Positions 3,458 through 31,175 of a stretch of 64,000 bases of DNA are shown in pieces. Where the stretch lies: NCBI RefSeq assembly GCF_026210795.1, contig NC_089432.1, forward strand, positions 2,356,001 to 2,420,000, read 5' to 3'. The notes beneath the pieces are model-generated. The model ran no database searches, was not told the origin of the DNA, and worked only from the letters and a program-made list of their open reading frames with translations. A program made the translations under genes and the position numbers. Position 1 is the first letter of the stretch, and the number at the start of each line of letters is the position of its first letter. Source of the DNA: Rhizophagus irregularis. Taxonomy: Eukaryota.

Positions 3458-3465
3458 GTTGTATA

Positions 3466-7945: not shown

Positions 7946-7964
7946 ATATAAAGAGATTATTATA

Positions 7965-8416
7965 GCTCAACCCACCTCGGCCGCGGCCTCGCAGTACCTA
8001 CATCCCCCCTCCGTGGGGTAGGGAATCCCCTATATCTGTCACCATCTGTCATTAACATCTGTCATATAATAATATACTAAAAAAGAATGAAATAAGGGAA
8101 AAGAGAGGAAAATACGATAGAATCAGAGGGGTATGACAGATATGACGGATATGACAGATGTTTCAGAAAAATCGGGAGAGGATACTCCCAGAAAAAAGTT
8201 TTGATTTTACCCCCCCAGATCTGTCATTCTGTCATAGATCTGTCATATGATCAGGATTCAGTCTATTCATCTGTCGGAAGCAGTGAGATAGCAAACCGAG
8301 TAAACAGGTAGGTTAATAGCCCCTAGAAGGTCTGTAAAGCCACAGAGAGATAACCGGGTAGAAGCGCGGATCTTTGGAAAAAATATATTCGGCAATTGAA
8401 GATTAGGTAACTATAA
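7965..8416 (+). repeat. Left terminal inverted repeat of the Maverick-like element
   Basis: Reverse complement of 30724-31175; only one mismatch noticed by eye (gatag vs gaaag). Confidence 0.96.
8394..8404 (+). promoter_or_regulatory. Putative element-specific promoter motif AATTGAAGATT (representative copy)
   Basis: Same core upstream of ORFs starting at 8427, 15888, 24978, 25558, 28082 and 30694. Confidence 0.6.
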
Positions 8417-8426
8417 GTAACATACA

Positions 8427-8942
8427 ATGATAAACTTACACGCCGCCACTTCTCTTGCCGAAGATCTTGGTCTCGATCTTGTAGACATCTATGGAATCCG
8501 TAAATGGATCCAAATGCAGGCTTCGCCCTTCAACGACCCGGACATAGTAAGAGAGATGGTCAGAAACCTTCCGATCAAAGAATTCGGAAAACATCTCAAG
8601 ATAAACAGACTCTGGTACAACGGTTGTAAAGCCGAGTTGTGGAAGCGATATAAAGAAGCTGAGGAGGTATACAAACAGGCAGTAGACTACTACAGGGAGG
8701 CCATTGGCAATTTCAATGAAGCCGATCAGAAAAAATACACTAGGTTCGCAGGAATGGTGGCAGTAGAAAGAGCTCTTCTCAGATGTGGCTTTATAACGCA
8801 AGAGTCCGACTGGGAGAAATGGACTCAAATAACGTACAACATCCAATTGCTTAAGGAAGGCCGCACTCTTGATGACTCGGACGATGAATCAGATGATGGA
8901 GAGGTATCTCTCGATGACTCGGATGATGAGGAATACTTTTAG
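8427..8942 (+). CDS. Hypothetical protein with acidic tail (Maverick-like element)
   Basis: 171-aa ORF beginning just inside the TIR, downstream of the shared motif. Confidence 0.7.
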   Translation: MINLHAATSLAEDLGLDLVDIYGIRKWIQMQASPFNDPDIVREMVRNLPIKEFGKHLKINRLWYNGCKAELWKRYKEAEEVYKQAVDYYREAIGNFNEADQKKYTRFAGMVAVERALLRCGFITQESDWEKWTQITYNIQLLKEGRTLDDSDDESDDGEVSLDDSDDEEYF

Positions 8943-8951
8943 AAGGCGGTA

Positions 8952-9272
8952 CTAATCTGTCTTTCTCTTTTTTGCTTCCTTAAGGCATTTATCAATACAC
9001 TGTTTACACGCGTCATCAGACTCTAAAATTTTTTGCCCAAGTTTTTTGCATTGCCTATTATACGCCGTCTGATGTCTTTTAGCCGCGGTTTCTTTTTTCT
9101 TCTCCTTGGTTTTCTTTTTGATAACCCAGTCTATCCCAGTAAAAGTATTCTTATGCATCCCACAAACTACACAGTCACCATGTAAACGATAGCGGCCATT
9201 TGTGGTCATATCTTGTATTTCACTAGCAGTCTCGGTTTCCTTCTTACACTTTAGGCAGTAAAATCGTGTCAT
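8952..9272 (-). CDS. Small basic zinc-ribbon protein (DUF5679-like), possibly DNA-binding
   Basis: MTRFYCLKCKK...TTNGRYRLHGDCVVCG with a Lys-rich C-terminus; ATG at 9272 is divergent from the integrase ATG. Confidence 0.7.
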   Translation of the reverse strand: MTRFYCLKCKKETETASEIQDMTTNGRYRLHGDCVVCGMHKNTFTGIDWVIKKKTKEKKKETAAKRHQTAYNRQCKKLGQKILESDDACKQCIDKCLKEAKKRKTD

Positions 9273-9316
9273 CTTAAGATTTGAAGTCCGAAATCTTTCC
9301 TTTAATTTGTCGTAAT

Positions 9317-10407
9317 ATGTCGCATTTAGAGAATTATTACAAATACTACAATCTCTCCGGAGTACCGGCACGAATTCTAAAAGGTGAGGAGCACTACAAC
9401 CTATATAAAAAGCCCTAAAGGAGAAGTCATCAGAGCGTCCACAAGTAGTTGTATGGAAACCAAATGCAACACATCAGGCAGATCTTGCAGAGATGCCAGT
9501 CGACCCCAAAGGATTCCACTATTTCCTCGTAGTGGTGGAAGTCGCGGGTAAACAAGTCGATGCAGAACCCCTAAAGGATAAAACTGCAAATAGGGTTCTA
9601 AACGGGTTTGTCAAAATCTACAGAAGAAATCGTATTAAGCCACCAACACACAGACTGGAGACAGATTCCGGATCAGAATTCACTAACGACCAGGTACGTG
9701 ATTTTTTCCTGAACAGCCTAGGGGTAATGATGAGGTTCGGCGAACCAGGAAGACACAAACAGCAATCATACGCTGAACGAGCCATCCAAGCAATCCAGGA
9801 ACCTCTCCTAAAACGAATGGTGGCACAGGAGTTGAAGACCGGGGTGACATCCGTGGAATGGTCAGAAGATTTCCGTGATGTAGTTAATAAAATAGATGAA
9901 ATCTGGCAGAGAAATCCCCCAGACATTCCGACAGGGTCACCCAAAGTGTCAAAAAAGACAGAACTTCTCTCTGAAGGAACACATGTCCGAGTCAAGTTAG
10001 ACGAACCTATTTCAGTACTCGGGAATAAACTCCATGGAAAATTTCGTACAGGTGACATAAGATGGAATCCCAATATCCGTGTCATCAAAAAAATGATCCT
10101 CTCACCCGAACAGCCTCCTACGTATCTTCTTGATGGACCACACGGGCGTCTAGGTGTATCCAGATGTGCGTACACCCGAAAAGAGTTGCAGATTGTTCCA
10201 GAAAATGAACATCCCCCACCTGACTCCGTGATAAGAGGGCAACCCGAAAGATTTGTACCTGAGCGGATACTCCGGCATCGCATCAGGAAGGGTCAAGACC
10301 AGTATCTAGTCAAGTGGGAACGATACCCAGATACCGAAGCCACTTGGGAACCCGCTGACCGGTTGGAGGAGGATGTCCCTGCCTTAATCCGCAAATTTTG
10401 GGAATAA
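9317..10407 (+). CDS. Retroviral-like (rve) integrase with C-terminal chromodomain; 1-nt frameshift near 9405-9420
   Basis: DDE: HQADL (upstream of the ORF-track start), ETDSGSEF, SYAERAI; chromodomain PERILRHR...YLVKWERYPDTEATWEP. Confidence 0.93.
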
Positions 10408-10421
10408 AAAATAAATATTCC

Positions 10422-11171
10422 CTATTTTTTGTCTCCTCGATTCACATCAGAAACTATCGGGATAAAAACATTCTTCTCATTACAAGTAAGGGCGATATGT
10501 TCACGTGATTCATGGACATCATAATTGTAACGTTTCAGACACGTCCGGCTCAATCCAATCTCCCTATGCTTGTAATCGCTTAAAACCGCGAGATTCTCAG
10601 TGATTACACAATCAGGGGTTAGTTTGATTGACACACCTTTTACCATGCCGAATGTCCTACCAGAACCCGGAGCGCCAGATATGTTATGTGTAATACTCTT
10701 GTCGATATCCAACCCTAATTCTTCAGCGGCTTCCCTCTGAATAAAAGACGCGTTAGCACAAGTGTCTGCTAAACACTGAATTGCTATCCCATTGACCTTC
10801 CCATCCAGCGCTAAAAGATCTTTAGTATTCTCCAAACGAGCTATGTCAATATCCATCGGGTCATCTTCCCTGATATCCTCTTCTTGTTTTTCCTCAACTA
10901 GGTCTTCCGGAATCTCCGTACTTTTACGAGCAGACTTTAATTCTTCCCGAAGAATCTCGCGGAGTAATTTTCTAAAATCTGCAGACCTTAATAAACTTAA
11001 TGAATCATTTTTGGTGACGGCTTTTATAAGTGTGGGCTTACTACTAGTAACCTTCACAGGAATCTTAATAGGAGTCATTTTAACTGATTTTTTTGGAACA
11101 GATTTAAGAAGTTTCGAGATACTTACACCCTTATCCGAGTTTACTTTTTTTTTGTACTTCGAACTGCACAA
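10422..11171 (-). CDS. Retropepsin-like aspartic protease, probably expressed by -1 frameshift from Gag
   Basis: LDGKVNGIAIQCLADTCANASFIQREAAEELGL and IGLSRTCLKRY; overlaps the gag end at A AAA AAG TAA in the -1 frame. Confidence 0.85.
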   Translation of the reverse strand: MCSSKYKKKVNSDKGVSISKLLKSVPKKSVKMTPIKIPVKVTSSKPTLIKAVTKNDSLSLLRSADFRKLLREILREELKSARKSTEIPEDLVEEKQEEDIREDDPMDIDIARLENTKDLLALDGKVNGIAIQCLADTCANASFIQREAAEELGLDIDKSITHNISGAPGSGRTFGMVKGVSIKLTPDCVITENLAVLSDYKHREIGLSRTCLKRYNYDVHESREHIALTCNEKNVFIPIVSDVNRGDKK

Positions 11172-12636
11172 ATCCGAAAACCACCTTCCTCATCGGGAAC
11201 AATTTTCAAGTCATCAAAACTCGCGGTATTAGTATCAATATCCATAGCATCATCATTAAGATCGAGGTTTCTCATTGCTCGGGCTAATTCCAGATCATCG
11301 CGTCTATCTTTAGCCTTCTGAAGTCTCTTTGGAAATCTTTTAGACGTCTCATATCCCATAATAAGATCAATAACATGTTGATCATCCTCACTAGTCCACT
11401 CAGGAGCATCAGGGTCACCAGGGTCATCACCAAAATCATGATCTACATAACCATCATCCCAATCAGGATCCTGATGATCCTGAACAACGCGTGGCCGTGG
11501 CTTTGGCCGAACAGGTTTAATCTGTTGTCTATAGACCGGTGGTTTACGAACTGGCTTAGATGCTTGTAATTGTTTAAATTGTGCCTGGAAATTCTTGGTA
11601 AGTTCCTCGGCCTGCGCCTTGAGCAATTCTTGTAATCGTTCTTGAGTAATAACGTCTGTCGACCTTTGTATTACAGCACCTTCGTGTGGAGTCACGGGAT
11701 GAGTATAGCCAGCCAATTCCTCTTTTTTAGCCTTTTCAATACCCTGGCGCCTTTGTAATCCATAGAACATTTCACCCTTTCGTCGCTCAAGATCACTCAA
11801 TCTATCGATTAATATATTAAGAGGCGCCGCCCCGATTCTGGAAGCTTCAATAACGTTTTCCGGCAAAAGTCCTCTATAGAACTGGTCAGTAACCATAATT
11901 CGATTATATCCTACAATATCCCCAGCCCTCTCAACTCGCTTATAGTAAGATCGAACAGGTTCACCTTGTTCCTGGTAAAGATTACTAAATCGTATCTGAA
12001 GTCTTTCTTCCACGACGGTTGGAAAATTTGTACGCATATGCATAAATGCTTGATCCAGGAGAATCCCCTGTAAGACTATTGGTTGATTCTGGACAGCAGC
12101 ATTAAATGGACCTCCATGATTTCCCAACCCATTAACGGGTTGATGAGTAGGACGTCCGCCCGCACGCCTCCACTGCTCTTCAACTTTAAAATTCGTTCTA
12201 ACGATATCAGCGCGTGATGGGAAAAATGCATCTCCAACGGTTACCGCCGCATTACCTGCAACCCTTGAATATACATCAGCATCAGACCCGGGTAAGTAAG
12301 TACCAACATGTAATCCATTAGCAACCTCAGGAACAGCTAAAGCTCTGAACGCTCGGCGAGTAGCACCGGCTCCACCATTTGCAGCAGCCACTAACCGAAT
12401 ATTCGAGAGTTCCCAATTTTTTCCAGTAAGTTCTGCATCAAACCACCTCGCCGCTTCATCTCTCATACAGCTACGAAGAACCCCATCACTCGCACCCGAC
12501 CAGGAGGCGCACCGGCATCGTCCAATGGATCAATACCAACGGTATTAATATACCCTAAAAAGTTATCAATAAAAAGATTAAGATCTTCATCTTCCCGACC
12601 ATGAAATATGGGGGCAGCTATACCAACGGCAGCCAT
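11141..12636 (-). CDS. gag: Retrotransposon Gag (capsid)-like protein, 1-nt frameshift at the G-run 12481-12484
   Basis: PIFHGREDEDLNLFI, MRDEAARWF, LYQEQGEPVRSYYKRV (MHR-like), QFYRGL. Confidence 0.8.
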
Positions 12637-13322
12637 ATCGTATTTTGTGGATGGTTGAGAGGAGGTGGAGGAAGGTTCAATTGTCTGATCCGAAACCATT
12701 GTACTTGGATACGCAGAGCGGCTATTTGTTGGAAAAGTCGATTCCTAAGACGTCCCAATGTCCGAATTCCAAAAAGAACCCGATTATTGGCATATACAAG
12801 CCGATTTCGTGCCACATCACGCTCGCCTATAGCTCTATTACGTTCACCTATAGCTCTATTACGTTCTCCTCTCATAAGATTATATTGCTGCTGAAGACGA
12901 CGATTAGTCGTCCGCATACCACCAAACTCACGTTCCAATTCAGCCAAATTAGCTTCTAAACTAGTAATAGTATCTTGTACGTTATTTAGCTCATCTTGTG
13001 TAAGACCTAACAAACCCGTTTGAACCTCGAGTTCATCTTGTAATTCATCACGTTCTTTTCGAGATCGATCGCGTTCCGCTTTTAATATATCGCGTTCTTC
13101 GTATGTTTCTCTACAGCGATGAATTAATAAATTAAGAGCATGTTTAAGACGATGGTTTGCATTTTGTACATCTCGATTAACAACCATGCGATCACTGACA
13201 GTTAAAAAATCTGTTAGATCCTTAATTACCGCAACTAATGGTATATTATTCATATCACGCAAATCCCTAGGAGGCGGTCCAGTAGGCTCTGAAGGAGTAT
13301 AAATTGCAATTGGTGTCGACAT
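12618..13322 (-). CDS. Coiled-coil protein, probably the N-terminal part of the Gag polyprotein
   Basis: Heptad-rich with a 21-nt repeat (RNRAIGE); its Pro-rich end overlaps the gag start in another frame. Confidence 0.7.
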   Translation of the reverse strand: MSTPIAIYTPSEPTGPPPRDLRDMNNIPLVAVIKDLTDFLTVSDRMVVNRDVQNANHRLKHALNLLIHRCRETYEERDILKAERDRSRKERDELQDELEVQTGLLGLTQDELNNVQDTITSLEANLAELEREFGGMRTTNRRLQQQYNLMRGERNRAIGERNRAIGERDVARNRLVYANNRVLFGIRTLGRLRNRLFQQIAALRIQVQWFRIRQLNLPPPPLNHPQNTIWLPLV

Positions 13323-13353
13323 CGTATTTAAACTAAGATAGAATAAAATTCAA

Positions 13354-14577
13354 ATGGATCTTTATGTATACAATTTGGACGAGTACACGACCGACTCGAG
13401 ACAGGGTAATGAGTTTGCCCCATCATGGCCTTTCCGTCTTGCCGTAGCAGGAAGTTCTGACTCGGGTAAGACAACTATGATTATTAATTTGTTAATGGGA
13501 GACAAGAAGGCAAAGGAGGATGGCGAAAGGTACATATTATGTGATGCGGTAATTCTAGTTGGCAGATACCTCGATGAACCGAAGTGGGCAGTCGTACGTG
13601 ATTTTTTCAAAGAAGAAGAAATTCCGTTTACCGCAGTATCCCATAGTGAGATTCCAAATGTTAAGGACTTCAACTCCACCCAGGCTACTGTGGTAATCTT
13701 CGAGGATTTGATGGATGCGCCTAAAAAAACCCAGGATCTCATCACTGGATTTTTTACACACGGGCGTCACAAAAATATCTCGTGTATCTATGTGGCCCAA
13801 AGATTCTTTACCATTCCCAAGGCTATTCGTGAAAATGTGAATTATATTTCCCTACATGGAGGTCACGGAAGTTTGACCGATACTAAGAGGATCATCCGCC
13901 AGTATACAGAAGAATCGGAGTCACTAGCTCCAGTAATCGATGACCTTACTCTACAACGCGAATTTATAGTATTTGATCTTAGAAGATCCAAGAGCGATCC
14001 GTTATCTATTCGGGTTAGATGGGATACTAGTCTCAGTTCGATCACCGATCAATCTCAGTTCGATCCTAGTTCGATCTCAGTTCAATCCCCGTTCGATCCG
14101 AGTTTGAACCCAGTTCGATCAAAGTTCAATCCGAGTTTGAACCCAGTTCGATCAAAGTTTAGTTCCTATGGCCAGAAAGCCGTAGCTGAAGCAAAAAAGT
14201 CCTCCCAGCTAATCGAGTTTGCTCGGGAATATCCATCGCCTAAAGAGAGAAAACACCTTCTCGTATCTGGTGTTATAGCTAAGAACGCAGATACCTGGAT
14301 TAAGTACGTCTTTCGGGAAGCCTACGGACTATCTGGTAAAACCCTGGGATCAGACTTCCAAAACTTCTTAGCGAAAGTACGGGATAGGACCACGAAGACT
14401 GAAATTCCAAAACCTGAGACCGTAAAGGAGTTATTCTCCCGATATGAAGTCCTGAAGTCTAGTCACCCTTTGGATAATAAAAAATTAATAGAAGGCATCG
14501 GGGTCCTTTTACAGATCTTTTCTAAGGGTCATATGGACCGTCGAGCATTACGAGTAGGGATCAATAGTATTTTGTAA
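13354..14577 (+). CDS. A32/FtsK-like DNA packaging ATPase with C-terminal extension
   Basis: FRLAVAGSSDSGKTT (Walker A), VVIFEDL (Walker B), FTHGRHKNISCIYVAQ, IPKAIREN. Confidence 0.93.
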   Translation: MDLYVYNLDEYTTDSRQGNEFAPSWPFRLAVAGSSDSGKTTMIINLLMGDKKAKEDGERYILCDAVILVGRYLDEPKWAVVRDFFKEEEIPFTAVSHSEIPNVKDFNSTQATVVIFEDLMDAPKKTQDLITGFFTHGRHKNISCIYVAQRFFTIPKAIRENVNYISLHGGHGSLTDTKRIIRQYTEESESLAPVIDDLTLQREFIVFDLRRSKSDPLSIRVRWDTSLSSITDQSQFDPSSISVQSPFDPSLNPVRSKFNPSLNPVRSKFSSYGQKAVAEAKKSSQLIEFAREYPSPKERKHLLVSGVIAKNADTWIKYVFREAYGLSGKTLGSDFQNFLAKVRDRTTKTEIPKPETVKELFSRYEVLKSSHPLDNKKLIEGIGVLLQIFSKGHMDRRALRVGINSIL

Positions 14578-14590
14578 GAATCTGGTTGCT

Positions 14591-15142
14591 TTAGCAACCC
14601 ATCTCGCGAAGTTTTTCCGCAGAAGCCCTAAGAATCATGGCACTTTTTTTACGTCCTTCGAAGTCAATCCGTAGCATCCTAGCTTTTAATCCAATAGCTC
14701 CTAAGGCTCGAGAAGCAAAGTTCTTAGTCATCGGATTTCTTACATGATTTACATAGTTCTCATAGAATGTAGTAAAGGGTTCATCAATACCATCCGGATA
14801 TGTATTCCGTAAGAACTGATATAAGGCAATTTCCCCACTGTCACATCCAATGGCTATAAGCTGTTCAAGAAGCCACTTCCTAGTATCCTCGTATGAATCT
14901 CCGTCCATAATTTTCATATCTAGTCTTTGTGTGAATAATTGCGTAAAATCCGCATTACTTGCCCGACGGATAATCTGGACCAACTTATCCCTGGCAAGTC
15001 CCAAGGCTTGTAAAGGTTCACTCTCGTCACCAATCTTCTTTATAATCTGTCTATACAACACGCTGGATAATCCTCTATATGCCGCTTTTGCAGAGAATAC
15101 TCCACAGTTCTGACACTGGTTTATTACGATTGATGTTGACAT
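14591..15142 (-). CDS. Hypothetical protein with CxxC and a probable C-terminal winged-helix domain
   Basis: FYENY...PMTKNFASRAL resembles FYRVY...PLSKINASRIL after the helicase domain of 28169-30694; first ATG at 15142. Confidence 0.65.
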   Translation of the reverse strand: MSTSIVINQCQNCGVFSAKAAYRGLSSVLYRQIIKKIGDESEPLQALGLARDKLVQIIRRASNADFTQLFTQRLDMKIMDGDSYEDTRKWLLEQLIAIGCDSGEIALYQFLRNTYPDGIDEPFTTFYENYVNHVRNPMTKNFASRALGAIGLKARMLRIDFEGRKKSAMILRASAEKLREMGC

Positions 15143-15303: not shown

Positions 15304-15888
15304 TTAGGAAGCGCAGTCCTTGCACAACTTGTCCGTTAAGTCACTTGGGCTTACAGGCATGAGACATTCCCTACACAACTCAATATTAAGCTCTGCAAGT
15401 CTCGGGGCATGGTCCTCCAAAGTTCGTGGATGACCGGAAGGACCGGAGGAAGGTGTCCCGTTAGTCGTATTCTGCTGTAAGATAAAATCATCATATTCAT
15501 CTTGGTCAGCTTGAATAGCGGCTCTGATTTGTTGTATATTATTGAAAGTTAACCGCTGGCCATCAAGATTTTCCTCATTATAGCGTGTTTCATTGATGAT
15601 TTCATCTATAAGCTCCTCCTCTTCAGAATGAACAAGGTAGTAGTCCTCAACTACCTCGTAGTCACTCTCAACCAGTCTATGATACGTTCTAGTACCGTGT
15701 TGAATATAGCGTCCTGTATCTGTATTTAAATATACAGGTTGTTCCTGGGGTGGAGGCGGTACGGTTTGTCTACGGACAAGCCTTCCATCGATATAATCAT
15801 GGGATTCCATAACTATTCGATTAAAGGTATCTCCACCAACACGGATTGGACGTCCGGTTATAGGATTAGTTATATAAGGGTATGACAT
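15304..15888 (-). CDS. Protein with two 2-cysteine-adaptor-like repeats and a C-terminal Zn finger
   Basis: NPITGRPIRVGGDTFNRI and NTDTGRYIQHGTRTYHRL; CRECL...CKDC. Confidence 0.7.
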   Translation of the reverse strand: MSYPYITNPITGRPIRVGGDTFNRIVMESHDYIDGRLVRRQTVPPPPQEQPVYLNTDTGRYIQHGTRTYHRLVESDYEVVEDYYLVHSEEEELIDEIINETRYNEENLDGQRLTFNNIQQIRAAIQADQDEYDDFILQQNTTNGTPSSGPSGHPRTLEDHAPRLAELNIELCRECLMPVSPSDLTDKLCKDCAS

Positions 15889-21864: not shown

Positions 21865-21911
21865 TAGAGCACAATGATAATAAAGTACGGGGAAAAAAGG
21901 TGAGAAGTCAG

Positions 21912-24032
21912 TTATTGCGAAGGAGCTGAAGCTCGATCGGAGGGAGAACCACCAAGAGAAGCAATGAAACCTTGAATGGAACCAGTGAGCGATTGTAAAG
22001 TATCTTTAATCGCTTTTTGATCTTGAATAACTGAGTTCAATTCGTCTTGCGGGGAAGGGTTAGAAGTAGAAGCGGGAGCAGAGTGCAGAGCCTTGTTGGA
22101 AATAGATATAGGGGAAGGGGATTTCATAGAACCAGAAGATGATGAGGGAGCATTGGGATGTTGGATTAAAATGCCAGTGATTTCGGGAGGATCTTCTTCC
22201 ATTCGATCAGGTTCAGAATTAATGATAGGTACAGAGGGAGGACTAATGCCTAAATGAGCTTCTATAGCAGAAAGCCGTTGGTTGTTTAGTTCAAGGGAGG
22301 AAATGCGGGATTCCACACGAGCAACATCTTGTTGAAGGTTCTTTAGAACATTAAGAATGTTAAGAGCGGCCTCAAGGGCACTAGAAGAATTCGAATCAGA
22401 GAGCGGAGCACGAGCATTGGACGAAAAAGAAACAGATCTATCTTTGCCTTTTCGGGTAATCGAAGGTGCGCGTCCATGGGCAGGTGAACCAGAAGAGGGG
22501 GGTTTGTTATTATTATTGTTATTACCATTAGTATTAGAACTATTGGAATTGGAATTAGAACGGTGAGCAGAAGCAGAACGATCCCGAGATTTAGATCGAG
22601 AACGAGAACGTGAATTATTGCGCGGCGTTCTTTGTTGGACGGGCTTTTGGCCAATATTGAAACGTTCTTTAAGAGCAGCCACAGGGTCACGTGTACGTGA
22701 GCGACCACGGCGTTGATTAAGCGGGCAAGAGGTAGGAGCACAACCAAGTTTACCACAACGATGGCAAAGAGCTTTCGAATCATTGGATGAACCCCACCGA
22801 AGAGTACGACCTTGAAAACCAATAGTTTGCTCCATAGCGGCATCCATTGTTTCCTGCGAGTTGAAGGTGACATAAGCCCAAGGTTTAGGTTTATAAGAAT
22901 TCAGGGAAAGGGGAATGTTAATTGCTTTTGCTCCATGTTCTTTAACCAGAGGAGCGAGATGAATATCTTTAGTATTAGCGGGAAGTCCAGAGAGAACAGC
23001 CACGAACGCTCTACGAGCGGCTTTTTGATCTAAGGAGTAGTGGCACGGGGTAACACGCAAGCAGGTAGAAAAGCAGTAAACTGCCCATTGAGTAGTGAAA
23101 CGGGAAATGGCATCGGCATGATCATAGACAATGCGGGCTTGTTGCATCTTAGCACCTTTCCTCGAGTAAAGATGGATGGTAAGGAGGTTGCCAAACTTCT
23201 TGAAATAGGATTGGAGTTGCGGTTTAGTAATGAAGAACGGGATATCTGTTACTTGAATTGCACGGAGGTCTTCATCGGATCGGAGCTGTTTGGGATCGTA
23301 CAGGTGGAATTGAAGGTCCGGAAAGTCGGAATGTGTGCTACCAACACACAAGTCACGAGCTTCCGCAGTATGAAAATGTATGATAAGACGTTTAGCGTCC
23401 CCTGAGCCAGTCATACGTGCACGACCGGTATATGATTCATACGTTTCTAAAAATAAGTTGTTAACGGCTTCTATAATTGCCTTATTGGTTTTAAGTTTCT
23501 CAAGAGTTTGGGGAGCGGAGTTGGGCGCAGCCGCAGCCAGGAAATCTTGACGATTAATGGTAATGGTAGGGGAGGGATCAACAGCCTGATCGGGCGATGT
23601 ACCATCATTAACGTCCATATTAGGGGACGCGTTAGGGGATGGGTTATTTTCTTTGTTTCGAGGTGCATGAATAGACGCGTTAGCTCCAGAAGACGCGTCT
23701 TGGCCAGGCGCAATAGGCGCAGCAGAATTTTTCGGGGTAGAAGCTTGAGTATTTTCTTGGGCAGTGCTGCGGGAATTATTTTGTTGAGGAATAGCGGTCG
23801 AAGTTGAACCAACTAAACCACCGTCAGCCGGCGCGTCGGCAACGAAATCTTCATAGTCTTCATCCATAGAGTCTTTTGTAAGTATACGGGAACGTTTTTG
23901 GGAATTATTATCACTATCGGAACCAGAGTTATCAGAGAGTTGTTTTTTATTATTTTTCTTTTCTTGACGAGCAGCCTTATTACTGTTAGGGTTATAGCTG
24001 CCGCCACCTCTTCTAGCAAGGTTTCTAGACAT
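21912..24032 (-). CDS. LINE ORF1 (RRM-like domains, Zn knuckle, coiled coil)
   Basis: IQVTDIPF...FKKFG, WAYVTF, CHRCGKLGCAPTSC, SR-rich tract. Confidence 0.9.
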   Translation of the reverse strand: MSRNLARRGGGSYNPNSNKAARQEKKNNKKQLSDNSGSDSDNNSQKRSRILTKDSMDEDYEDFVADAPADGGLVGSTSTAIPQQNNSRSTAQENTQASTPKNSAAPIAPGQDASSGANASIHAPRNKENNPSPNASPNMDVNDGTSPDQAVDPSPTITINRQDFLAAAAPNSAPQTLEKLKTNKAIIEAVNNLFLETYESYTGRARMTGSGDAKRLIIHFHTAEARDLCVGSTHSDFPDLQFHLYDPKQLRSDEDLRAIQVTDIPFFITKPQLQSYFKKFGNLLTIHLYSRKGAKMQQARIVYDHADAISRFTTQWAVYCFSTCLRVTPCHYSLDQKAARRAFVAVLSGLPANTKDIHLAPLVKEHGAKAINIPLSLNSYKPKPWAYVTFNSQETMDAAMEQTIGFQGRTLRWGSSNDSKALCHRCGKLGCAPTSCPLNQRRGRSRTRDPVAALKERFNIGQKPVQQRTPRNNSRSRSRSKSRDRSASAHRSNSNSNSSNTNGNNNNNNKPPSSGSPAHGRAPSITRKGKDRSVSFSSNARAPLSDSNSSSALEAALNILNVLKNLQQDVARVESRISSLELNNQRLSAIEAHLGISPPSVPIINSEPDRMEEDPPEITGILIQHPNAPSSSSGSMKSPSPISISNKALHSAPASTSNPSPQDELNSVIQDQKAIKDTLQSLTGSIQGFIASLGGSPSDRASAPSQ

Positions 24033-24615
24033 GTTAGAAGGTATGAGTTGGGTAAAATATAAGAGTTGTTAGTACGAAGATATAAAATTTTCTTTCCGAA
24101 AATTTTTGGTTAATAGATCAGCGGTAAGAGATCTTATCAGTTCTTTCAGTCCTTGTCAAAAAAATGCGAGGATGCCTGATGATGAGGTTACATGGTCATC
24201 AGTCCTTGTCGCAAAACACGAGGATACCTGATGAATAAGTTATTGGATTATTGGCCTAAAAAGCATTCATGGAAAAACTATGGATTATATTACAGAAAAT
24301 GTGAACGGAGTTCATGTCACGTGATACCCTGAACAAATGTGTAGAGTGTCACGTGATTTCATGCGGTACGTAGATCATTTCCTTTTTGGGCGATACCCGT
24401 TCCACAAAAAATCGATTTTGGTAAAAATGCGTTTGGAACCTTGTGTAACATAAATTTCCTTTTTCGGTAATTCGGGATTACGCGGTAATGCCGGCCGGAT
24501 CTAAAAAATATGACTCTGCAGGGTAATTCCTACGAAAGTCAAGTACAAAATGCTTACTCCTGTTGAGTCCATTCATACCACTCCCAGTCCCCAAGGATCG
24601 CCTCCCCATCTTTGT

Positions 24616-24978
24616 TCACTTAATGCATACTCTATGGTTTCCCTCTCTTGGGGGTCCCACGACCATCCCATTCCTAAGCATTTTCTCCATAATATAAAGC
24701 TGATCCTCGGTGAGGCGGTTTATCCATCTTTTATAGAGGTCGTTTACATCTTCAAACGTTATCCAGTCAATTTCCCTCTTTATATAATGCTTTCCGAGAG
24801 CTCGGATTTCACAGTACACATCCCCGATCGTAGTGGCATAATTTTTCCACCTCTTATATGCCTCTCGACGAACTTCCTGCCACCACACTCTATCTACCTT
24901 ACTCGCTGCAATAAGGTCAGTATCCGGGATCTTTGCGACAATGCGTTCGACTATTTCTACTGGTAATCGGTCCAACAT
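24616..24978 (-). CDS. F-box-like protein
   Basis: MLDRLPVEIVERIVAKIPDTDLIAASKVDRVW; possible 1-nt frameshift near 24655 that would extend the ORF to 24573. Confidence 0.8.
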   Translation of the reverse strand: MLDRLPVEIVERIVAKIPDTDLIAASKVDRVWWQEVRREAYKRWKNYATTIGDVYCEIRALGKHYIKREIDWITFEDVNDLYKRWINRLTEDQLYIMEKMLRNGMVVGPPREGNHRVCIK

Positions 24979-25087
24979 GATGTTATGTTACTTATACTAT
25001 AGCTATCTTCAATTACTGTATGCCTATTACACATGGATAAAAAATATAGACTAAATTCGTACGGGATCGTAGGACCACAGGAGCCGC

Positions 25088-25558
25088 TTATGCAAGAAGT
25101 TCTGTTAAGGTTTTCTCAGCCTCGTTTTTAGTAATAGCTCGCTTTGGGGGACCGGTTGATGAGTCCTTAGTCGCATTATAATACAATTCGAAGAGGGCCT
25201 CAAGCTTATCTAGGAGAGCTTGTTTATTCTTGTATGATTCGCGGATTTTTGCTATTTTAGCAGTATATGCCGCATTATCTGGGAAGAGTTTTCTGGCCAC
25301 GAACTTCACATATGATACAGGAGAATTTGCCGTTTGGATTCGCTTGATATACTTCACGTGGTCCTGGACGAGGTAACTGGTTTTGCTAAACCCAGATACT
25401 AATGCGACTACTATAGTATCTTTTAATGCGCGGATAATCTTGGGGACAGTTTCGTCAGAGACAACATTAGGCTGAATGCGCGATGCCTCGTAAATAACCT
25501 CCTCACTAGTGCTGTCAGTGCTGTTAACAATGCTTGCGAATTCGGTATATGTTGACAT
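25088..25558 (-). CDS. Hypothetical protein (Maverick-like element)
   Basis: 156-aa ORF in the co-oriented gene array, with the shared upstream motif. Confidence 0.7.
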   Translation of the reverse strand: MSTYTEFASIVNSTDSTSEEVIYEASRIQPNVVSDETVPKIIRALKDTIVVALVSGFSKTSYLVQDHVKYIKRIQTANSPVSYVKFVARKLFPDNAAYTAKIAKIRESYKNKQALLDKLEALFELYYNATKDSSTGPPKRAITKNEAEKTLTELLA

Positions 25559-25640
25559 GATTCTTTGTACTTTGTAAAAAATATAAATCTTCAGTTACCT
25601 GTTCATTCGAATGAGAAAAAATAAATATGAACCTCAGGGT

Positions 25641-26165
25641 TTACACTTGGGATACTGCAAGACAGTAGAAGCGTCGCTCGGCCTTTTGCATCAATGGAGA
25701 GCCTGGTCTATATAACCAGGGGATAGCGACTTTCTGGATTATCCTAGCCGCTTTATTGTTCCTTCTTTCTATATATCTCCTAAAGGCATTCTGGATCATT
25801 TCAGCATGATGAGTATAATAGTCGAAATTAAATTGCTTTGGACAACTATATAAATGTAGTCGCACCGCTTGATCCATGAAAGCGTCAGCTCCCCATCCGC
25901 GATCAATAAAAGATTTACAGTAGGTACAGTACCACCTATTTGGTAGTCGTGATACTATTCTCCTAATGTGCACAATATAAGCATATACAGCTTGACGAGA
26001 CCTTGGATAAGGTAGCCGCCTATGAAAACCTATTCTACTACAAGTCTCATAATATTGCACAGCATTCTGAATGCGCTTAGCCCACGCGTGGAAACTTTCG
26101 TCGTCTTGTCTACCTAATCCGTCAGTGTTTTGCATTTGGGTATCTCGTAAGATTACATATCCCAT
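25641..26165 (-). CDS. Protein with C2H2-like finger and two IQ-like motifs
   Basis: WYCTYC...HLYSC; AEMIQNAFRRYIERR and AARIIQKVAIPWLYRP; start uncertain. Confidence 0.65.
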   Translation of the reverse strand: MGYVILRDTQMQNTDGLGRQDDESFHAWAKRIQNAVQYYETCSRIGFHRRLPYPRSRQAVYAYIVHIRRIVSRLPNRWYCTYCKSFIDRGWGADAFMDQAVRLHLYSCPKQFNFDYYTHHAEMIQNAFRRYIERRNNKAARIIQKVAIPWLYRPGSPLMQKAERRFYCLAVSQV

Positions 26166-26228
26166 AGGTTTATTCAATTATGCCATCACGATATGTCAGT
26201 AAAAAATATACATACCGGTCCCTAGCAA

Positions 26229-28082
26229 TCATGTCCAGATAACCTTGTTCGCATTTTTCACATGGCAGTATCCCGCGGTTTCAAACTTGAAAGTCTTTAG
26301 AGTCGTATCTGCATTCTCTGAACAAGTGAAAAGCGCGGGGCTATCTGGCTGTTCTTCTAAAATAAATCCGTCTGTATGGATACGTCGTACTTTATCCTTG
26401 TATGGTTGAATTGCCTCAGATGTGATTTTGCGACCACGTGCTAATAAGAATGGGGCGATCCTGGGATACTCACCTTTGAAGGGATTACCCGGGTTTGTAA
26501 ACTGGAATCGCCACTGGTCAGATCCTACTGGTATGATAGAGTCAAGTGTATGGCCCTCTGGAAATGTAAATGGGTCTGTTTGATCTGCGGTGAGTGTCTT
26601 GTAATTACGCTTCCTCTGGCATAATGCTCCCCATAATGTGTTGAGGACTCGCTTTGCCACGTGGCCAGCTACGCCACCCTGGTTTTTAATTTTGAAGAGG
26701 AAGTGTACATACTCACCGAATATTACAGTTCCAGGGATTCTCGCTTCTCTATCATATATCAATGCATTTGGCTTCCCATCCTGTATTAACTGTATATTGA
26801 GACCAAGTTTTTTTGCTCGTTGTAAGTCGATGAATGTATAGATTCCCCTTTTATTCTGTCGGAAGAGAATATTATTCCCACTTATTTTGGCACGGAATAA
26901 TCCATACAAGGCATAACCCCTGTGGTCGACAAAGTCATTAAGTGTCTGGAATTTACCCCGTCTGATTGGAAAGTTCACGTTTGATTGTTGGATACTCGGG
27001 TATAAACTTGTTGCGTCATACTGTCTTCCATAGCCCTTCCACTCGTTATCTGCCCAGATTAATCCTCCCATCATTGCATCACTTAACCACTCCGCTTCTA
27101 TCGGGTCAAGAGGATCATTGGCTGGAATTCCTACACTTAATCGTTCGAATAACCAGAGAGCCGTTCTTTTGTAAGACCAGTTATGGTATGATAAGTCGAT
27201 TCCTAAACCGAACTTCTTTGTCTCCTGTAGAAAGGAATTCCGCTCCTCGTGGATTCTCTGATATGCTTCTTCAAGAGTTTCATATACTCCAGTCTTACGG
27301 TTTTTCTCGACGGGGATGAAAGAACTTTTGGAATTCTTAGTTTTTTGAAACTGCGCAATTGTGCAAGACTTAACTGTTTTGCCGTTGTATATTGTGACTA
27401 CATTATTGGTCCCATCTTCATGGTATACAATGGGTAAATTACGCTTTTTATCTATTTTACTGGGGTGGAGTCTTCCAGGATTTAACGTGAGGGAGTAATG
27501 GCCTTCTGATAGGATGAGAGTCGCACGTCTATCGGACTTACTCTTAGAGATTCGGGTAATGTCCCCCACAATATTAATTGCGAGACTTCCTGCGAGTTGT
27601 TCAACCTTGTCCATGCATGAAACTGGGATGGGAGCATCGCGATTGAGACCTAATGCCTTTTTGATATACTCGGGCTTTTCGATTGACTTTGGCATTTTAG
27701 AGAATGTGCCGTAAATATTTTTTAGGCATTCATACAGGCAATCATTTAGCTCCCCATTGCATCCTCCTGCGGCCGGTGGACTATCTCTTGCATAAATTAT
27801 GAATCGTTCAAAATAATCAGGGTCTGCGTCATCCGGTAGTTGTGCTTCATCATAATGGTCTAATAGTGAAAAGAGGCTGGCTGGTTGGTTTCCTGATGTC
27901 CATCCACCGGGTTTCCAGTTTTCATAGGGAAGTAGGATCTGGAACTTTCTATCTGGAAATCGCGTCTGGAGAGTCTGACCGAGTCTGGCGATAGCTCCTC
28001 TGGAAAAGCGAGCACCGGAATACTGAAGTTCCTTGATGTCAGGTCGTGTTGGTAAAGTGCGGGCAATTCTTGAGTATTGCAT
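26229..28082 (-). CDS. Compact protein-primed-type family B DNA polymerase
   Basis: MMGG, YDATSLYPS (motif A), KRVLNTLWGAL (motif B), IHTDGF (motif C); N-terminal NDCLYECL...EGHY. Confidence 0.88.
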   Translation of the reverse strand: MQYSRIARTLPTRPDIKELQYSGARFSRGAIARLGQTLQTRFPDRKFQILLPYENWKPGGWTSGNQPASLFSLLDHYDEAQLPDDADPDYFERFIIYARDSPPAAGGCNGELNDCLYECLKNIYGTFSKMPKSIEKPEYIKKALGLNRDAPIPVSCMDKVEQLAGSLAINIVGDITRISKSKSDRRATLILSEGHYSLTLNPGRLHPSKIDKKRNLPIVYHEDGTNNVVTIYNGKTVKSCTIAQFQKTKNSKSSFIPVEKNRKTGVYETLEEAYQRIHEERNSFLQETKKFGLGIDLSYHNWSYKRTALWLFERLSVGIPANDPLDPIEAEWLSDAMMGGLIWADNEWKGYGRQYDATSLYPSIQQSNVNFPIRRGKFQTLNDFVDHRGYALYGLFRAKISGNNILFRQNKRGIYTFIDLQRAKKLGLNIQLIQDGKPNALIYDREARIPGTVIFGEYVHFLFKIKNQGGVAGHVAKRVLNTLWGALCQRKRNYKTLTADQTDPFTFPEGHTLDSIIPVGSDQWRFQFTNPGNPFKGEYPRIAPFLLARGRKITSEAIQPYKDKVRRIHTDGFILEEQPDSPALFTCSENADTTLKTFKFETAGYCHVKNANKVIWT

Positions 28083-28168
28083 TTTTATGTATATGATTTG
28101 TCTTCAACTATAAATAATATCTTTCTATATATATACGAAAAAAAAAAAGAAATAATCTCAAATAGCGC

Positions 28169-30694
28169 TTACAATATGTCGTTGATAGCGCCCTCAGTAT
28201 CCTCTTCGTCCCAGTCATCGATGATTCCATTGGCGGCCTCCCATTCACGTTCCATATCAGTTTTTGGACGTTCCTCGGGGATCTCTCGCGCTTTACCCTT
28301 ATCTGCCCTCATAGTTTCATAACCAGAGGGGGTGGGAATAATCTCGGCATTACGATTCTCCTTGTATATTCTTATTAAATCTGCGAGTTCTTTACGGCTA
28401 GGTATTTTAGGTAAGTATCCATTATATTCAATCCAGTCCTTGAAGCGGTCTACTACCTCCATAAGGTAGTACTGGTACTCGTCCTCAATACGCGTTGTGG
28501 GACATTCCTCTATTTCAAACGCGAGTATTTCCCAGTCATATTCGTCTGACGCGTCTTGGTACTTGGCCCATAATTCCTTACCTGTATTGTAGAGATCATT
28601 GAAGACCTGGTCCTTTAAATTTTTAACCCATGGTTTGCGATCCCATCGGTGTCTTTCTTGCCAAGCCCAGTGCGCTCGAGTGCCTTCCTTTGGTTCAGGA
28701 TCCCGGTCAACTTCTGGTTCTGTGTCGGGTTCTGGGATAAATTGCTCTTCAGAAGCCGGTTCTGGGTCAGGCTTAGTGACAGATGCAGAAGATTCTGCGG
28801 GATACTCGGGTTGTTGTTCAGCAGCTGAGTTCACAGTTGTAAAATCTGAGTCTGATAATAAGTCGTCTAAGACGTCGTAGTTATCTGGCTCGGGGGCAGA
28901 CGGTTTTTCAGGAACTGGGTTTGCAGTTGTAGAATCCGAGTCTGATAACAAGTCATCTAAGACGTCGTAGTCATCTAGCTTGGGGGCAGACGGTTTTTCT
29001 TCCCTTAACTCTTGTAAACGTTCTTTTAAGTGGTCAGGCTTGGGTGGAAGCGGTGGAGGAGTTTTGCGAATTACAGGTGCGGGTTTTTCTTCAACGGGTT
29101 CGGGTTTTTCCTCTGTGGGTTCGGGTTTTTTCTCAGCGGATTTTTCCTCAGCGGGTTCGGATTTTTCTTGTACGTCTTGTGAATTGTTAGCTGGATTATA
29201 TATATTTGCCAAGAACTTATCCAAGGCATTGGGGTCTGATGCGGGTTTCTTAGAAGTCTCTATATCAATTCCTTCTATATCTATCTCGTCTGTTTCGTGG
29301 ATCCAGTTTTTGCCGAGGTATTTATTGTAAAGATCCTCCCTGGATATGCTATATACTCGGGTTAACTTTTTATTTATATAAGTCCGATTACTATTTATAC
29401 TCAACTCATTTGATAGGATTCTAGAAGCGTTTATCTTTGATAAGGGTGTAATGCCACGAGTTTCGCAATATGAAGTATATACCCTATAAAATTCTTGAAC
29501 AGGTAGGTCGGTCATATAATTTTTCACTATGAGGTATGTGTCCTTTATAAATTGGAATAGCGGTGGAAGAGTTGAGATGATATGTTCCTGTTTGGATGTT
29601 GTCATGGGTGGCGGATTTCCATTGAAGTCTGAGTAAGTATTCGCAATGGCTCTCAAATAAGCATAGAATGCCTCACTGGCGCCTGGGTATTTCATAGCGT
29701 CACCGAGTTTTTTGAAGTAGTTGAGGTCTCCCTTGCGGGATGGTGACACATCCAAGAACACTGTGCGCCTATCATCATTATCCACTCTGAGAGCATTTTC
29801 GTTGGTTAGGACGATAGTAGACATAAAGTTTTTATAATGTGTTGGTGTCTTGTATTTTTCATGGATTTCCATTATGTCACTCGTTACCTTATCCTTTAAA
29901 GAGCGATACAGATTATTCCACTGGCTTTTTTCCGTGGGCATTTCCTCGAGAAGAAGAAGAATCTTACCCTGTAATTGCCCATTGAAACTTCCACGAATCG
30001 TCTGAGGATCGCTGGTCTTATAAACGAGTTGAGTGCCTAGGACGCTGCGCTGAATGAAATCTGTTATAATGCCTTTGCCCCAACCCTGTCCAGATTTCAG
30101 GTAAAGGATCGAGTACATCTTCCTTCCAGCAGATACACCGGCCAACCACTTGATGATATACTCAGTGAGATTCCAATCACCCGAACACCAGATATCCTGA
30201 ATGTGAGAGAAGATAAATTTAACCGCGAGGTGAATTGTAGACTCAAAGGTGGATATCGGACGCAAGACGTGGAGGAATCCCGGGAAGATATTTAGATAGA
30301 GTTGGCCGGTTAAGGATCTGAAGATTCGCTGTTTATGGGGATCACAGGTTGCATTACATACATCGGTATTCTCGACCATAAACCATTTGTAGATGTTGAA
30401 CTCGGTCTTTTGAGAGGGTCCTTGTTCAGGTTGTGTGTAGAATACCTTCATAATTGGACGGATAAGTTTACCAATATTTTTGTCAATAACGTGTTTCAAA
30501 CTTTTACTATCCGGGTCCCACCAGAAAACCCCATGAGGATCTGCACAGGGAATGAAATAACTGCAAAGATACCTCTTGGCTTGATCGAGGTCACTCATAC
30601 TCTTTGCAGCGACAATAAGCCGTTTAAGCTCATTGATACTAAAGGCTTTCGTTTGTTCACCGAATTTGGGGATAACTTGAGCTTGAGTGGTCAT
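28169..30694 (-). CDS. SF3 (D5-like) helicase with winged-helix and acidic/Pro-rich C-terminal region
   Basis: LKSGQGWGKG (Walker A), LLLLEEM (Walker B), IVLTN (motif C), DDRR; internal duplication EKPSAPxxDxYDVLDDLLSDSD. Confidence 0.9.
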   Translation of the reverse strand: MTTQAQVIPKFGEQTKAFSINELKRLIVAAKSMSDLDQAKRYLCSYFIPCADPHGVFWWDPDSKSLKHVIDKNIGKLIRPIMKVFYTQPEQGPSQKTEFNIYKWFMVENTDVCNATCDPHKQRIFRSLTGQLYLNIFPGFLHVLRPISTFESTIHLAVKFIFSHIQDIWCSGDWNLTEYIIKWLAGVSAGRKMYSILYLKSGQGWGKGIITDFIQRSVLGTQLVYKTSDPQTIRGSFNGQLQGKILLLLEEMPTEKSQWNNLYRSLKDKVTSDIMEIHEKYKTPTHYKNFMSTIVLTNENALRVDNDDRRTVFLDVSPSRKGDLNYFKKLGDAMKYPGASEAFYAYLRAIANTYSDFNGNPPPMTTSKQEHIISTLPPLFQFIKDTYLIVKNYMTDLPVQEFYRVYTSYCETRGITPLSKINASRILSNELSINSNRTYINKKLTRVYSISREDLYNKYLGKNWIHETDEIDIEGIDIETSKKPASDPNALDKFLANIYNPANNSQDVQEKSEPAEEKSAEKKPEPTEEKPEPVEEKPAPVIRKTPPPLPPKPDHLKERLQELREEKPSAPKLDDYDVLDDLLSDSDSTTANPVPEKPSAPEPDNYDVLDDLLSDSDFTTVNSAAEQQPEYPAESSASVTKPDPEPASEEQFIPEPDTEPEVDRDPEPKEGTRAHWAWQERHRWDRKPWVKNLKDQVFNDLYNTGKELWAKYQDASDEYDWEILAFEIEECPTTRIEDEYQYYLMEVVDRFKDWIEYNGYLPKIPSRKELADLIRIYKENRNAEIIPTPSGYETMRADKGKAREIPEERPKTDMEREWEAANGIIDDWDEEDTEGAINDIL

Positions 30695-30723
30695 TTTTTC
30701 GTTCTATTAAATCGAGTACTAAT

Positions 30724-31175
30724 TTATAGTTACCTAATCTTCAATTGCCGAATATATTTTTTCCAAAGATCCGCGCTTCTACCCGGTTATCTCTCTGTGG
30801 CTTTACAGACCTTCTAGGGGCTATTAACCTACCTGTTTACTCGGTTTGCTATCTCACTGCTTCCGACAGATGAATAGACTGAATCCTGATCATATGACAG
30901 ATCTATGACAGAATGACAGATCTGGGGGGGTAAAATCAAAACTTTTTTCTGGGAGTATCCTCTCCCGATTTTTCTGAAACATCTGTCATATCCGTCATAT
31001 CTGTCATACCCCTCTGATTCTTTCGTATTTTCCTCTCTTTTCCCTTATTTCATTCTTTTTTAGTATATTATTATATGACAGATGTTAATGACAGATGGTG
31101 ACAGATATAGGGGATTCCCTACCCCACGGAGGGGGGATGTAGGTACTGCGAGGCCGCGGCCGAGGTGGGTTGAGC
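30724..31175 (-). repeat. Right terminal inverted repeat of the Maverick-like element (tip probably extends to ~31190)
   Basis: Reverse complement of 7965-8416, followed by gtagcgagacacact(ac). Confidence 0.96.

What the first reader, a model, noticed from the sequence alone, without database searches (positions are those of the whole stretch)
8394..30746. Shared virus-like promoter motif (TGAAGA) upstream of the element's genes
Seen, on the coding strand 24-49 nt before the ATG: AATTGAAGATT (ORFs 8427 and 30694, both supplied by the TIR), AATTGAAGATA (15888, 24978), AACTGAAGATT (25558) and AGTTGAAGACA (28082). Variants occur before 15142 (ATTTAAAGATA) and the integrase (ATTTGAAGTC), and three copies are preceded by ACAG(G)TA. 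The leaders of 8427 and 24978 also share TATAAGTAACATA. Known: yeast cytoplasmic linear plasmids use an ATNTGA upstream sequence and mimivirus early genes use AAAATTGA. Inference: a dedicated regulon, possibly read by a helper-virus polymerase since no RNA polymerase is encoded here.
Basis: partly seen in the sequence, partly recalled or inferred. Interest (0 to 1): 0.78.

Follow-up and report, generated by a model that had tools for sequence, protein, structure and literature searches.

The report
Fungal Maverick with giant-virus transcription signals
A 23-kb Maverick transposon, likely from the mycorrhizal fungus Rhizophagus irregularis, carries conserved sequence signals before and after most of its replication genes that look like the early start and stop signals of pox- and asfar-type giant viruses, so a helper virus's polymerase, not the fungus's own, likely switches it on.

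Summary
Its conserved core is A-W-Y-T-G-A-A, not TGAAGA. TGAAGA occurs in 5 of 11 window leaders but 0 of 23 leaders from distant relatives, whereas AWYTGAA occurs in 18 of 32 held-out leaders (shuffles 1.3). Three further signals go with it: TA at fixed +14 or +18 after the motif (27 of 38, null 10); a TATTTTTT tract after stop codons (28 of 54, null 1.9); and T-runs depleted from the sense strand of replication and accessory genes (12 vs 52 expected), but not from the LINE, host ORFs or the ATPase-Gag module. Together these match the early-gene grammar of vaccinia and African swine fever virus (upstream element, initiator, poly-T stop). The element (D5 helicase, pPolB, A32, rve-chromo integrase, Gag-protease; no RNA polymerase, no jelly-roll capsid) therefore most likely borrows a Nucleocytoviricota polymerase, as virophages and transpovirons do. 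The helper is not shown: literal AAAATTGA is absent, my test on the published Rhizophagus asfa-like endogenous virus did not replicate, and no start sites are mapped. Verdict: new variant of a known kind.

The parts
7965..8416 (.). Left terminal inverted repeat, 452 nt; supplies the promoter of ORF 8427
   Evidence: 100% complementary to 30724-31175
8394..8419 (+). Upstream element AATTGAA with TA at +14 and +18 (predicted initiator), ORF171
8427..8942 (+). ORF171, unknown; T6 tract at 8968-8973
   Evidence: no significant Pfam
8952..9272 (-). DUF5679 protein; A-variant AATTAAA at 9297-9307
   Evidence: Pfam E 4.8e-18
9279..9289 (+). ATTTGAA element 38 nt before the integrase ATG
9317..10407 (+). 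rve integrase with chromodomain; frameshifted near 9415 in this copy; T6 at 10425-10430
   Evidence: Chromo E 7e-18, rve E 4e-6; frames
10422..11140 (-). Retropepsin-type aspartic protease, open in the -1 frame behind an A9G-stop run at the Gag end; TTTATTTTTTA after its stop (T6 10406-10411)
   Evidence: Asp_protease_2 E 2.9e-8; same run in L008
11141..12633 (-). Gag-like protein with a retroviral capsid C-terminal fold; frameshifted near 12480 in this copy
12618..13322 (-). Coiled-coil ORF overlapping the Gag start; ATTTGAA at 13345-13355 (absent in L008)
13354..14577 (+). A32-like packaging ATPase; A-variant only at 13326-13336
   Evidence: Pox_A32 E 1.3e-10
14591..15142 (-). ORF183, unknown; ATTTAAAGATA at 15204-15214
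15304..15888 (-). ORF194 (weak 2C_adapt); element at 15924-15934; T10 at 15230-15239
16492..24032 (-). Inserted LINE (ORF1 with RRM; ORF2 endonuclease-RT-RNase H); used as a control presumed to be read by host Pol II; ends not mapped
24616..24978 (-). F-box-like ORF120; element at 25004-25014
   Evidence: weak F-box E 0.006
25088..25558 (-). ORF156, unknown; element at 25586-25596; T6 at 25039-25044
25641..26135 (-). ORF174 (second ATG preferred, as in L004); AATTGAATA at 26169-26179; T6 at 25616-25621
26229..28082 (-). [quoted passage not shown]
   Evidence: DNA_pol_B_2 above cut-off; motifs at 355, 477, 568
28169..30694 (-). D5-like superfamily 3 helicase; T11 at 28138-28148
   Evidence: DUF5906 E 1.4e-17, Pox_D5 E 1e-5
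30724..31175 (.). Right terminal inverted repeat with the element at 30736-30746 (-) serving D5

Best explanation
AWYTGAA is likely the upstream half of a Nucleocytoviricota-type early promoter, which a helper virus's early transcription factor and RNA polymerase would read because this Maverick encodes no RNA polymerase. Shown in sequence: the element sits on the coding strand 26-55 nt before the ATG, is followed at fixed distance by TA-NN-TA, genes end in TATTTTTT, and their coding strands avoid T-runs. Inferred: transcription starts at the A at +15 or +19, stops at the T tract, and gives one mRNA per gene for helicase, polymerase and accessory genes when a pox/asfar-like virus infects the fungus. 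The ATPase-Gag-protease module lacks the T-run avoidance and would be a second, later or host-read class. The integrase then returns copies to the chromosome. The best candidate helper is the Asfarviridae-related lineage found endogenised in R. irregularis; this is not shown.
For: Held-out enrichment: AWYTGAA 18 of 32 leaders (shuffles 1.3, opposite strand 0), 9 of 23 in distant relatives; 25 of 43 leaders vs 3.8% of 879 AT-matched flank windows. In 9 of 9 distinct pPolB leaders the motif or its A-variant starts at -26 to -30, and no G-type copy lies nearer than -27. TA at +14 or +18 in 27 of 38 (null 10.3; P 0.0002 allowing for offset choice), 22 of 29 without pPolB, 11 of 12 in distant non-pPolB leaders; best count when aligned on the ATG is 12 of 38. 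Vaccinia's element (15 nt, TGA at 6-8, start site a median 12 nt on; PMC6211774) puts the start at about +18/+19 by my arithmetic; A is at +19 in 30 of 36. The ASFV early initiator is TA(+1)NA at a fixed distance from its early motif and its terminators are poly-T without structure (PMC7163114). TATTTTTT follows 28 of 54 stops (null 1.9, opposite strand 1); AATAAA is not enriched (5 vs 7.0); 3 of 38 tracts have a hairpin at z below -2. Sense-strand T5 runs: window 0 vs 3.5 expected; relatives 12 vs 52.5, T5NT 1 vs 12.3; LINE 22 vs 17.9, host ORFs 14 vs 13.6. Pacmanvirus has AAAATTGA and a WWTTTATTTTTTAWW 3' motif, and its transpoviron uses the early motif (PMC11788076). IMG/VR relatives of the pPolB also carry rve integrase and A32 or a virophage minor capsid.
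Against: The 5' A-tract of known early promoters is missing (AAAATTGA 0 of 44). In the published asfa-like endogenous virus of strain 4401, AAAATTGA (64+77) and AATTGAA (142+164) are not over-represented against composition-matched controls. A by-eye link of AAATTGAAT to an ATG 20-25 nt on (8 of 15, control 3 of 20) fell to 2 of 11 in held-out rows. Chloroviruses lack an RNA polymerase yet have an upstream motif and TTTTTNT (PMC5294985, PMC7019647), so such signals do not prove a viral enzyme. The A-variant is not diagnostic (4 of 8 flank ORF leaders). Leaders are partly orthologous, so the counts overstate independence. The host control is only the window's flanks. Maverick copies expanded recently in several strains while the endogenous virus is in one of five.
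Confidence: 0.68

Rival explanations
1. The motif and the downstream TA are a compact nuclear Pol II promoter, read with a host factor or a small DNA-binding protein of the element (DUF5679, ORF183); the T tracts are U-rich 3'-processing signals.
For: Chloroviruses use host transcription with their own motif and TTTTTNT. The element resides in the nucleus and many copies are young and hypomethylated (PMC8647823). The A-tract is missing and the helper match failed.
Against: The LINE and host ORFs show no T-run avoidance. The motif is rare in flank DNA (3.8%). Spacing agrees with the poxvirus early start.
Confidence: 0.2
2. The helper is a cytoplasmic linear virus-like element of the pGKL2 type, with its own reduced RNA polymerase.
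For: The UCS lies 20-40 nt before the ATG and has the same spacing to the start site; many relatives have ATTTGAA, which fits ATNTGA; U-tracts occur at VLE 3' ends.
Against: ATNTGA as such is not enriched (7 of 32 vs 4.4); AATTGAA, the commonest form, breaks it. VLEs end at stem-loops, and these tracts lack them. I found no report of such an element in Glomeromycota, but did not search for one specifically.
Confidence: 0.06
3. The signals are relics of a former helper-dependent life, or copies of one leader spread by recombination, and no longer act as promoters.
For: Leaders of 8427 and 24978 share 13 nt; this copy has two frameshifts and a LINE.
Against: The shared 13 nt sit at the same distance from the motif in both, which is the predicted initiator. 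Core and spacing persist across unrelated genes and pPolB at 55-65% identity while the spacer diverges. T-run avoidance needs selection on synonymous sites.
Confidence: 0.06

Closest known systems
Vaccinia early promoter (UCE) and TTTTTNT; ASFV early promoter motif, TA(+1)NA initiator and poly-T terminator (PMC6211774, PMC7163114, PMC5294985)
   Same: TGAA core in AT-rich DNA, fixed distance to a TA-type start, T-tract after genes.
   Different: No AAAA in front of the core; the base after TGAA was never A in 37 aligned copies; found in a transposon with no polymerase.
Helper-dependent PLV Gezel-14T/PgVV (bioRxiv 2022.07.28.501842), pacmanvirus transpoviron (PMC11788076), mavirus and EMALEs (PMC8547959)
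   Same: Small TIR-flanked elements without RNA polymerase that carry a helper-type promoter; PgVV and the transpoviron use the early motif before replication genes.
   Different: There the motif was matched to an isolated helper; here none is matched. The host is a fungus, and a Gag-protease module stands where virophages have jelly-roll capsid genes.
Glomerales Mavericks/Polintons (reported in Glomus intraradices; PMC11952901, PMC11296320, PMC8502044, bioRxiv 2026.06.19.733378)
   Same: This element very likely belongs to them: pPolB, rve integrase, A32, D5 helicase, TIRs, many R. irregularis copies.
   Different: The passages I read describe no promoter, terminator or helper dependence. The Fig. 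5 legend of PMC8502044 already labels an element with Gag, retropepsin and D5-like helicase; the figure is not held, so I could not see if it is this one.
Yeast pGKL virus-like elements, UCS ATNTGA (PMC6211774)
   Same: Similar hexamer, similar distance to the ATG.
   Different: They encode their own polymerase, stay cytoplasmic and end at stem-loops; ATNTGA is not enriched here.

Membership tests
Maverick/Polinton | Protein-primed PolB | tested here: met
   DNA_pol_B_2 26.6 bits, cut-off 25.8; motifs A, B, C present, C as HTDG
Maverick/Polinton | Retroviral-type integrase | tested here: met
   rve E 4e-6 on the ORF after the frameshift (below cut-off) plus chromodomain; 365-aa ortholog in L008
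Maverick/Polinton | Long terminal inverted repeats | tested here: met
   452 nt, 100%
Maverick/Polinton | 5-6 bp target-site duplication | tested here: inconclusive
   None at the TIR ends; TTATAG at 7960-7965 recurs at 31205-31210, 29 nt beyond the right TIR
Polintovirus / virophage (virion-forming) | Double jelly-roll major capsid, penton and cysteine protease | tested here: not met
   Every ORF over 250 aa is assigned otherwise; the only candidate folds as a retroviral capsid; L008 has the same gene set over 11 kb
Nucleocytoviricota early promoter | TGA core in AT-rich DNA on the coding strand shortly before the gene | tested here: met
Nucleocytoviricota early promoter | Fixed spacing to an initiator-like site | tested here: met
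   TA at +14/+18, sequence level only
Nucleocytoviricota early promoter | A-tract before the core (AAAATTGA, AAAANTGAAAA) | tested here: not met
   AAAATTGA 0 of 44 leaders
Nucleocytoviricota early promoter | Mapped start site; read by viral early factor and polymerase | not testable with these tools
   Only contigs were available, no raw RNA reads
Helper-dependent PLV / transpoviron | No RNA polymerase of its own | tested here: met
Helper-dependent PLV / transpoviron | Promoter shared with an identified helper | tested here: inconclusive
   Counts and by-eye rows in the strain 4401 endogenous virus
Yeast virus-like element promoter | ATNTGA before each ORF and stem-loop termination | tested here: not met

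The most novel reading that the evidence does not exclude
Glomerales Mavericks are capsid-swapped satellites of a still-circulating asfar/pox-like giant virus of mycorrhizal fungi. The helper's early machinery fires their replication genes, and a retrotransposon Gag-protease replaces the jelly-roll virion. Their recent expansion would then record repeated, unseen giant-virus infections of the most widely used crop symbiont.
Probability: 0.35. Interest if true: 0.85.

Novelty: new variant of a known kind. Interest (0 to 1): 0.66.

Why it matters
Helper-type promoters are known for protist and algal virophages, PLVs and transpovirons. My ten paper searches showed no such account for fungal Mavericks; most subscription papers, the original Maverick papers and the 2024 polinton review were not held. 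If right, a transposon family that recently expanded in Glomerales depends on infection by a giant virus known there only as an endogenous relic. The result gives base-level predictions (starts at +15/+19, ends at TATTTTTT) and a three-part signature for telling helper-dependent from host-read Polintons and for finding the helper. It also suggests that T-run avoidance can sort genes of such elements into expression classes from sequence alone.

Tried and rejected
No whole genome was held, so the host control is the window's flanks only. IMG/VR had no close relatives; an alignment query gave 3 distant loci. Run search: no RNA holder listed. Laid contigs of six coded runs cover the element but cannot show starts or levels, and their tables were too truncated to test conservation at motif bases or fix the termini. 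First Gag fold failed (pLDDT 37, spliced gene model), and that alignment found nothing in the PDB. Gag does not resemble the 438-aa L039 protein. Atlas search of ORF183 gave leads under 0.9 only. A 20-nt TIR-end pattern hit one cyanobacterial contig, about what chance gives; two 12-nt TIR-end words are absent from the endogenous virus. TAATTGAAT there lies largely in a repeat. TATTTTTT is frequent there (510+468), but T-runs are common in AT-rich DNA, so I did not count it. Pol III was rejected on general knowledge: genes up to 2.5 kb that must be translated. General homopolymer avoidance was rejected as the main cause: A5 runs 200 vs 220 expected, against T5 12 vs 52, though A6 is also somewhat low (57 vs 74). 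Four look-ups in earlier findings returned nothing.
Full report
What the region is. Positions 7965-31175 are bounded by 452-nt inverted repeats that are 100% complementary, and GC is about 36-46% against mostly 17-35% in the flanks. Pfam on 26 ORFs gives a D5-like helicase, a 617-aa protein-primed polymerase, an A32 ATPase, an rve integrase with chromodomain, DUF5679, an aspartic protease and an inserted LINE. None of the element's 16 main ORFs matches an RNA polymerase or capping enzyme. The polymerase has 162 homologs, the nearest named as Rhizophagus irregularis at up to 97%, so the host is inferred to be that fungus or a close relative. Mavericks are known there and expanded recently in Glomerales (passages of PMC11952901 and PMC8647823). 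This copy has frameshifts in the integrase and the Gag-like gene.

The observation. Every quoted copy is at its stated place on the coding strand. Counting the TIR copy once, TGAAGA is in 5 of 13 leaders against 0.43 in shuffles, and the best shared 6- or 7-mer stays significant after allowing for motif choice (P 0.012, 0.008).

The real motif. One metagenome scan gave 37 related loci. From these I took 45 leaders of genes whose starts looked complete and added 12 from the window; 13 near-duplicates were dropped, leaving 44, of which 32 are held out. In the -60 to -13 window, AWYTGAA is in 18 of 32 held-out leaders (shuffle mean 1.3, opposite strand 0). Among the 23 from elements with pPolB at 65% identity or less it is in 9, and TGAAGA in 0. 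An A-variant (AWYTAAA) fills most of the rest (26 of 32 for both forms; shuffles 5.5), but it is also in 4 of 8 flank ORF leaders and is not diagnostic. All 9 distinct pPolB leaders have the motif or its variant at -26 to -30, and no G-type copy is nearer than -27. Against 879 AT-matched flank windows before any ATG, AWYTGAA is 3.8% versus 25 of 43. AAAATTGA is in 0 of 44 leaders and ATNTGA is not enriched.

A second element at fixed distance. Aligned on the motif, TA appears at +14 in 20 of 38 leaders and at +18 in 20 of 38; 27 have either (null 10.3; P 0.0002 allowing for the choice of offsets). It holds without pPolB (22 of 29), in distant non-pPolB leaders (11 of 12) and in the window alone (7 of 11; P 0.004-0.01), but not in the pPolB set alone (5 of 9). 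Aligned on the ATG the best count is 12 of 38, so the signal is tied to the motif. In vaccinia the 15-nt early element has TGA at positions 6-8 and the start site a median 12 nt further on; yeast VLEs give 11 nt (passages of PMC6211774). By my arithmetic that is +18/+19 from the end of TGAA, where 30 of 36 leaders have A. ASFV early genes start at TA(+1)NA a fixed distance from their early motif (section 11 of PMC7163114; the logo is a figure and was not seen).

Stop signals. TATTTTTT lies within 70 nt after the stop in 28 of 54 non-redundant 3' regions (shuffles 1.9, opposite strand 1); AATAAA is in 5 (shuffles 7.0). For 38 T6 or longer tracts the median distance is 24 nt, 28 are preceded by TA, and 3 have an upstream hairpin at z below -2. 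ASFV ends transcripts at unstructured poly-T, vaccinia early genes at TTTTTNT, and pacmanvirus has WWTTTATTTTTTAWW after 221 ORFs; 1 of my 54 regions matches that last pattern exactly. If T-runs stop the polymerase they should be missing inside genes. Against synonymous-codon shuffles, sense-strand T5 runs are 0 vs 3.5 in nine window genes (P 0.013) and 12 vs 52.5 in 50 ORFs of relatives (T5NT 1 vs 12.3; T6 0 vs 8.6; 11 loci left out as duplicates, distant or host-embedded, except one D5 ORF of L007). They are not depleted in the LINE (22 vs 17.9), ten flank ORFs (14 vs 13.6), the integrase, or the ATPase-Gag-protease module (6 vs 4.7; 5 vs 6.3 in L008). A5 runs are only slightly low (200 vs 220). 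The ORFs are related, so the P values are optimistic.

The helper. Zhao et al. 2023 (PMC10640383; passages, part 2 of the text and the supplement) describe a 1.5-Mb Asfarviridae-related endogenous region with two polymerase subunits, capping enzyme and VLTF3 in one of five strains. I could search its DNA only as text. AAAATTGA (64 and 77 on the two strands) and AATTGAA (142, 164) are no commoner than controls (71-162; 120-261). By eye, AAATTGAAT had an ATG 20-25 nt further on in 8 of 15 readable rows against 3 of 20 control rows (P 0.03), but in 2 of 11 held-out rows, several from the AT-rich end. The test is inconclusive, and that virus is eroded. Three IMG/VR contigs with the same polymerase family carry rve integrase, A32 or helicase genes, and one has a Sputnik-type minor capsid; the family has 1951 clusters.

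The structural module. No jelly-roll capsid gene is present. A Gag-like protein matches Retrotrans_gag in 11 of 16 homologs (best E 1.7e-6) and PEG10 (E 5.6e-4). A model of a full-length homolog (mean pLDDT 67) matches the PEG10 capsid C-terminal domain (Foldseek probability 1.0, E 1.5e-3, rmsd 2.0), and the top 36 VIA-align rows are all retroviral or retrotransposon-derived capsids (best Z 8.9). The module is syntenic in L008 with the same A9G-stop junction to the protease. The Fig. 5 legend of PMC8502044 already names Gag, retropepsin and D5-like helicase on a related element, so I do not claim the module as new.

Mechanism. Shown: four linked sequence signals on the replication and accessory genes, and no polymerase. 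Inferred (0.68): a pox/asfar-type early factor binds AWYTGAA, the helper's polymerase starts at +15 or +19 and stops at the T tract, so helicase and polymerase are made only during co-infection; the integrase keeps copies in the chromosome between infections. How an integrated copy reaches the helper's machinery is unknown; co-packaging as for transpovirons is one route. The main rival (0.2) is a compact Pol II promoter, since chloroviruses have a motif and TTTTTNT without their own polymerase.

Comparison and verdict. It works like PgVV and the pacmanvirus transpoviron, which use the helper's early motif, and like EMALEs in carrying type-specific motifs. It is a Maverick by polymerase, integrase and TIRs, but not a virion-forming polintovirus or virophage by capsid. 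The papers I read, as passages, sections or listings, give no promoter analysis for fungal Mavericks; bioRxiv supplements, figures and subscription papers could not be seen and may bear on this. New variant of a known kind; interest 0.66.

Noticed in passing
window 10422-13322 (-); L008 5995-9423 (+): Coiled-coil, Gag-like and aspartic protease genes lie between A32 and the integrase in both elements (pPolB 59% identical). The Gag C-terminal domain folds like PEG10 and retroviral capsid. An A9G-stop run with the protease in the -1 frame, and an overlap of the coiled-coil stop with the Gag ATG, are conserved. Probably the element labelled in Fig. 5 of PMC8502044 (figure not seen).
   Followed up: yes
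L034, L035, L038-L040: Distant pPolB relatives, some virophage-like, carry (A/G)CTTAAA about 15-45 nt before several replication genes, seldom before structural genes. It aligns with AWTTRAA; seen by eye, not tested statistically.
   Followed up: partly
window 7960-7965 and 31176-31210: The right end has 29 nt beyond the TIR before a TTATAG that matches the left flank: possibly a target-site duplication with a truncated left end.
   Followed up: partly
window about 16000-24500: Full-length LINE with RNase H inserted in the element, both ORFs open; GACAAGGACTGATGAC occurs near both ends. It recalls the retrotransposons nested in EMALEs.
   Followed up: partly
L006 2286-2891; L030 822-1304: A stand-alone ORF with capsid C-terminal-like repeats (Retrotrans_gag E about 1e-4) follows pPolB in two relatives.
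   Followed up: no
window 44300-50300: Repeated units with GTAAGTTTCG...CGAAAC and GAAACGTT-CTAAC-GTTTC...TAG that look like structured short introns of a host gene.
   Followed up: no
window 8-6345, 33533-36108, 50578-51411, 56842-57660: LTR retrotransposon remnants, hAT transposase pieces, a 52-nt tandem array and a Sel1-repeat gene in the flanks.
   Followed up: no
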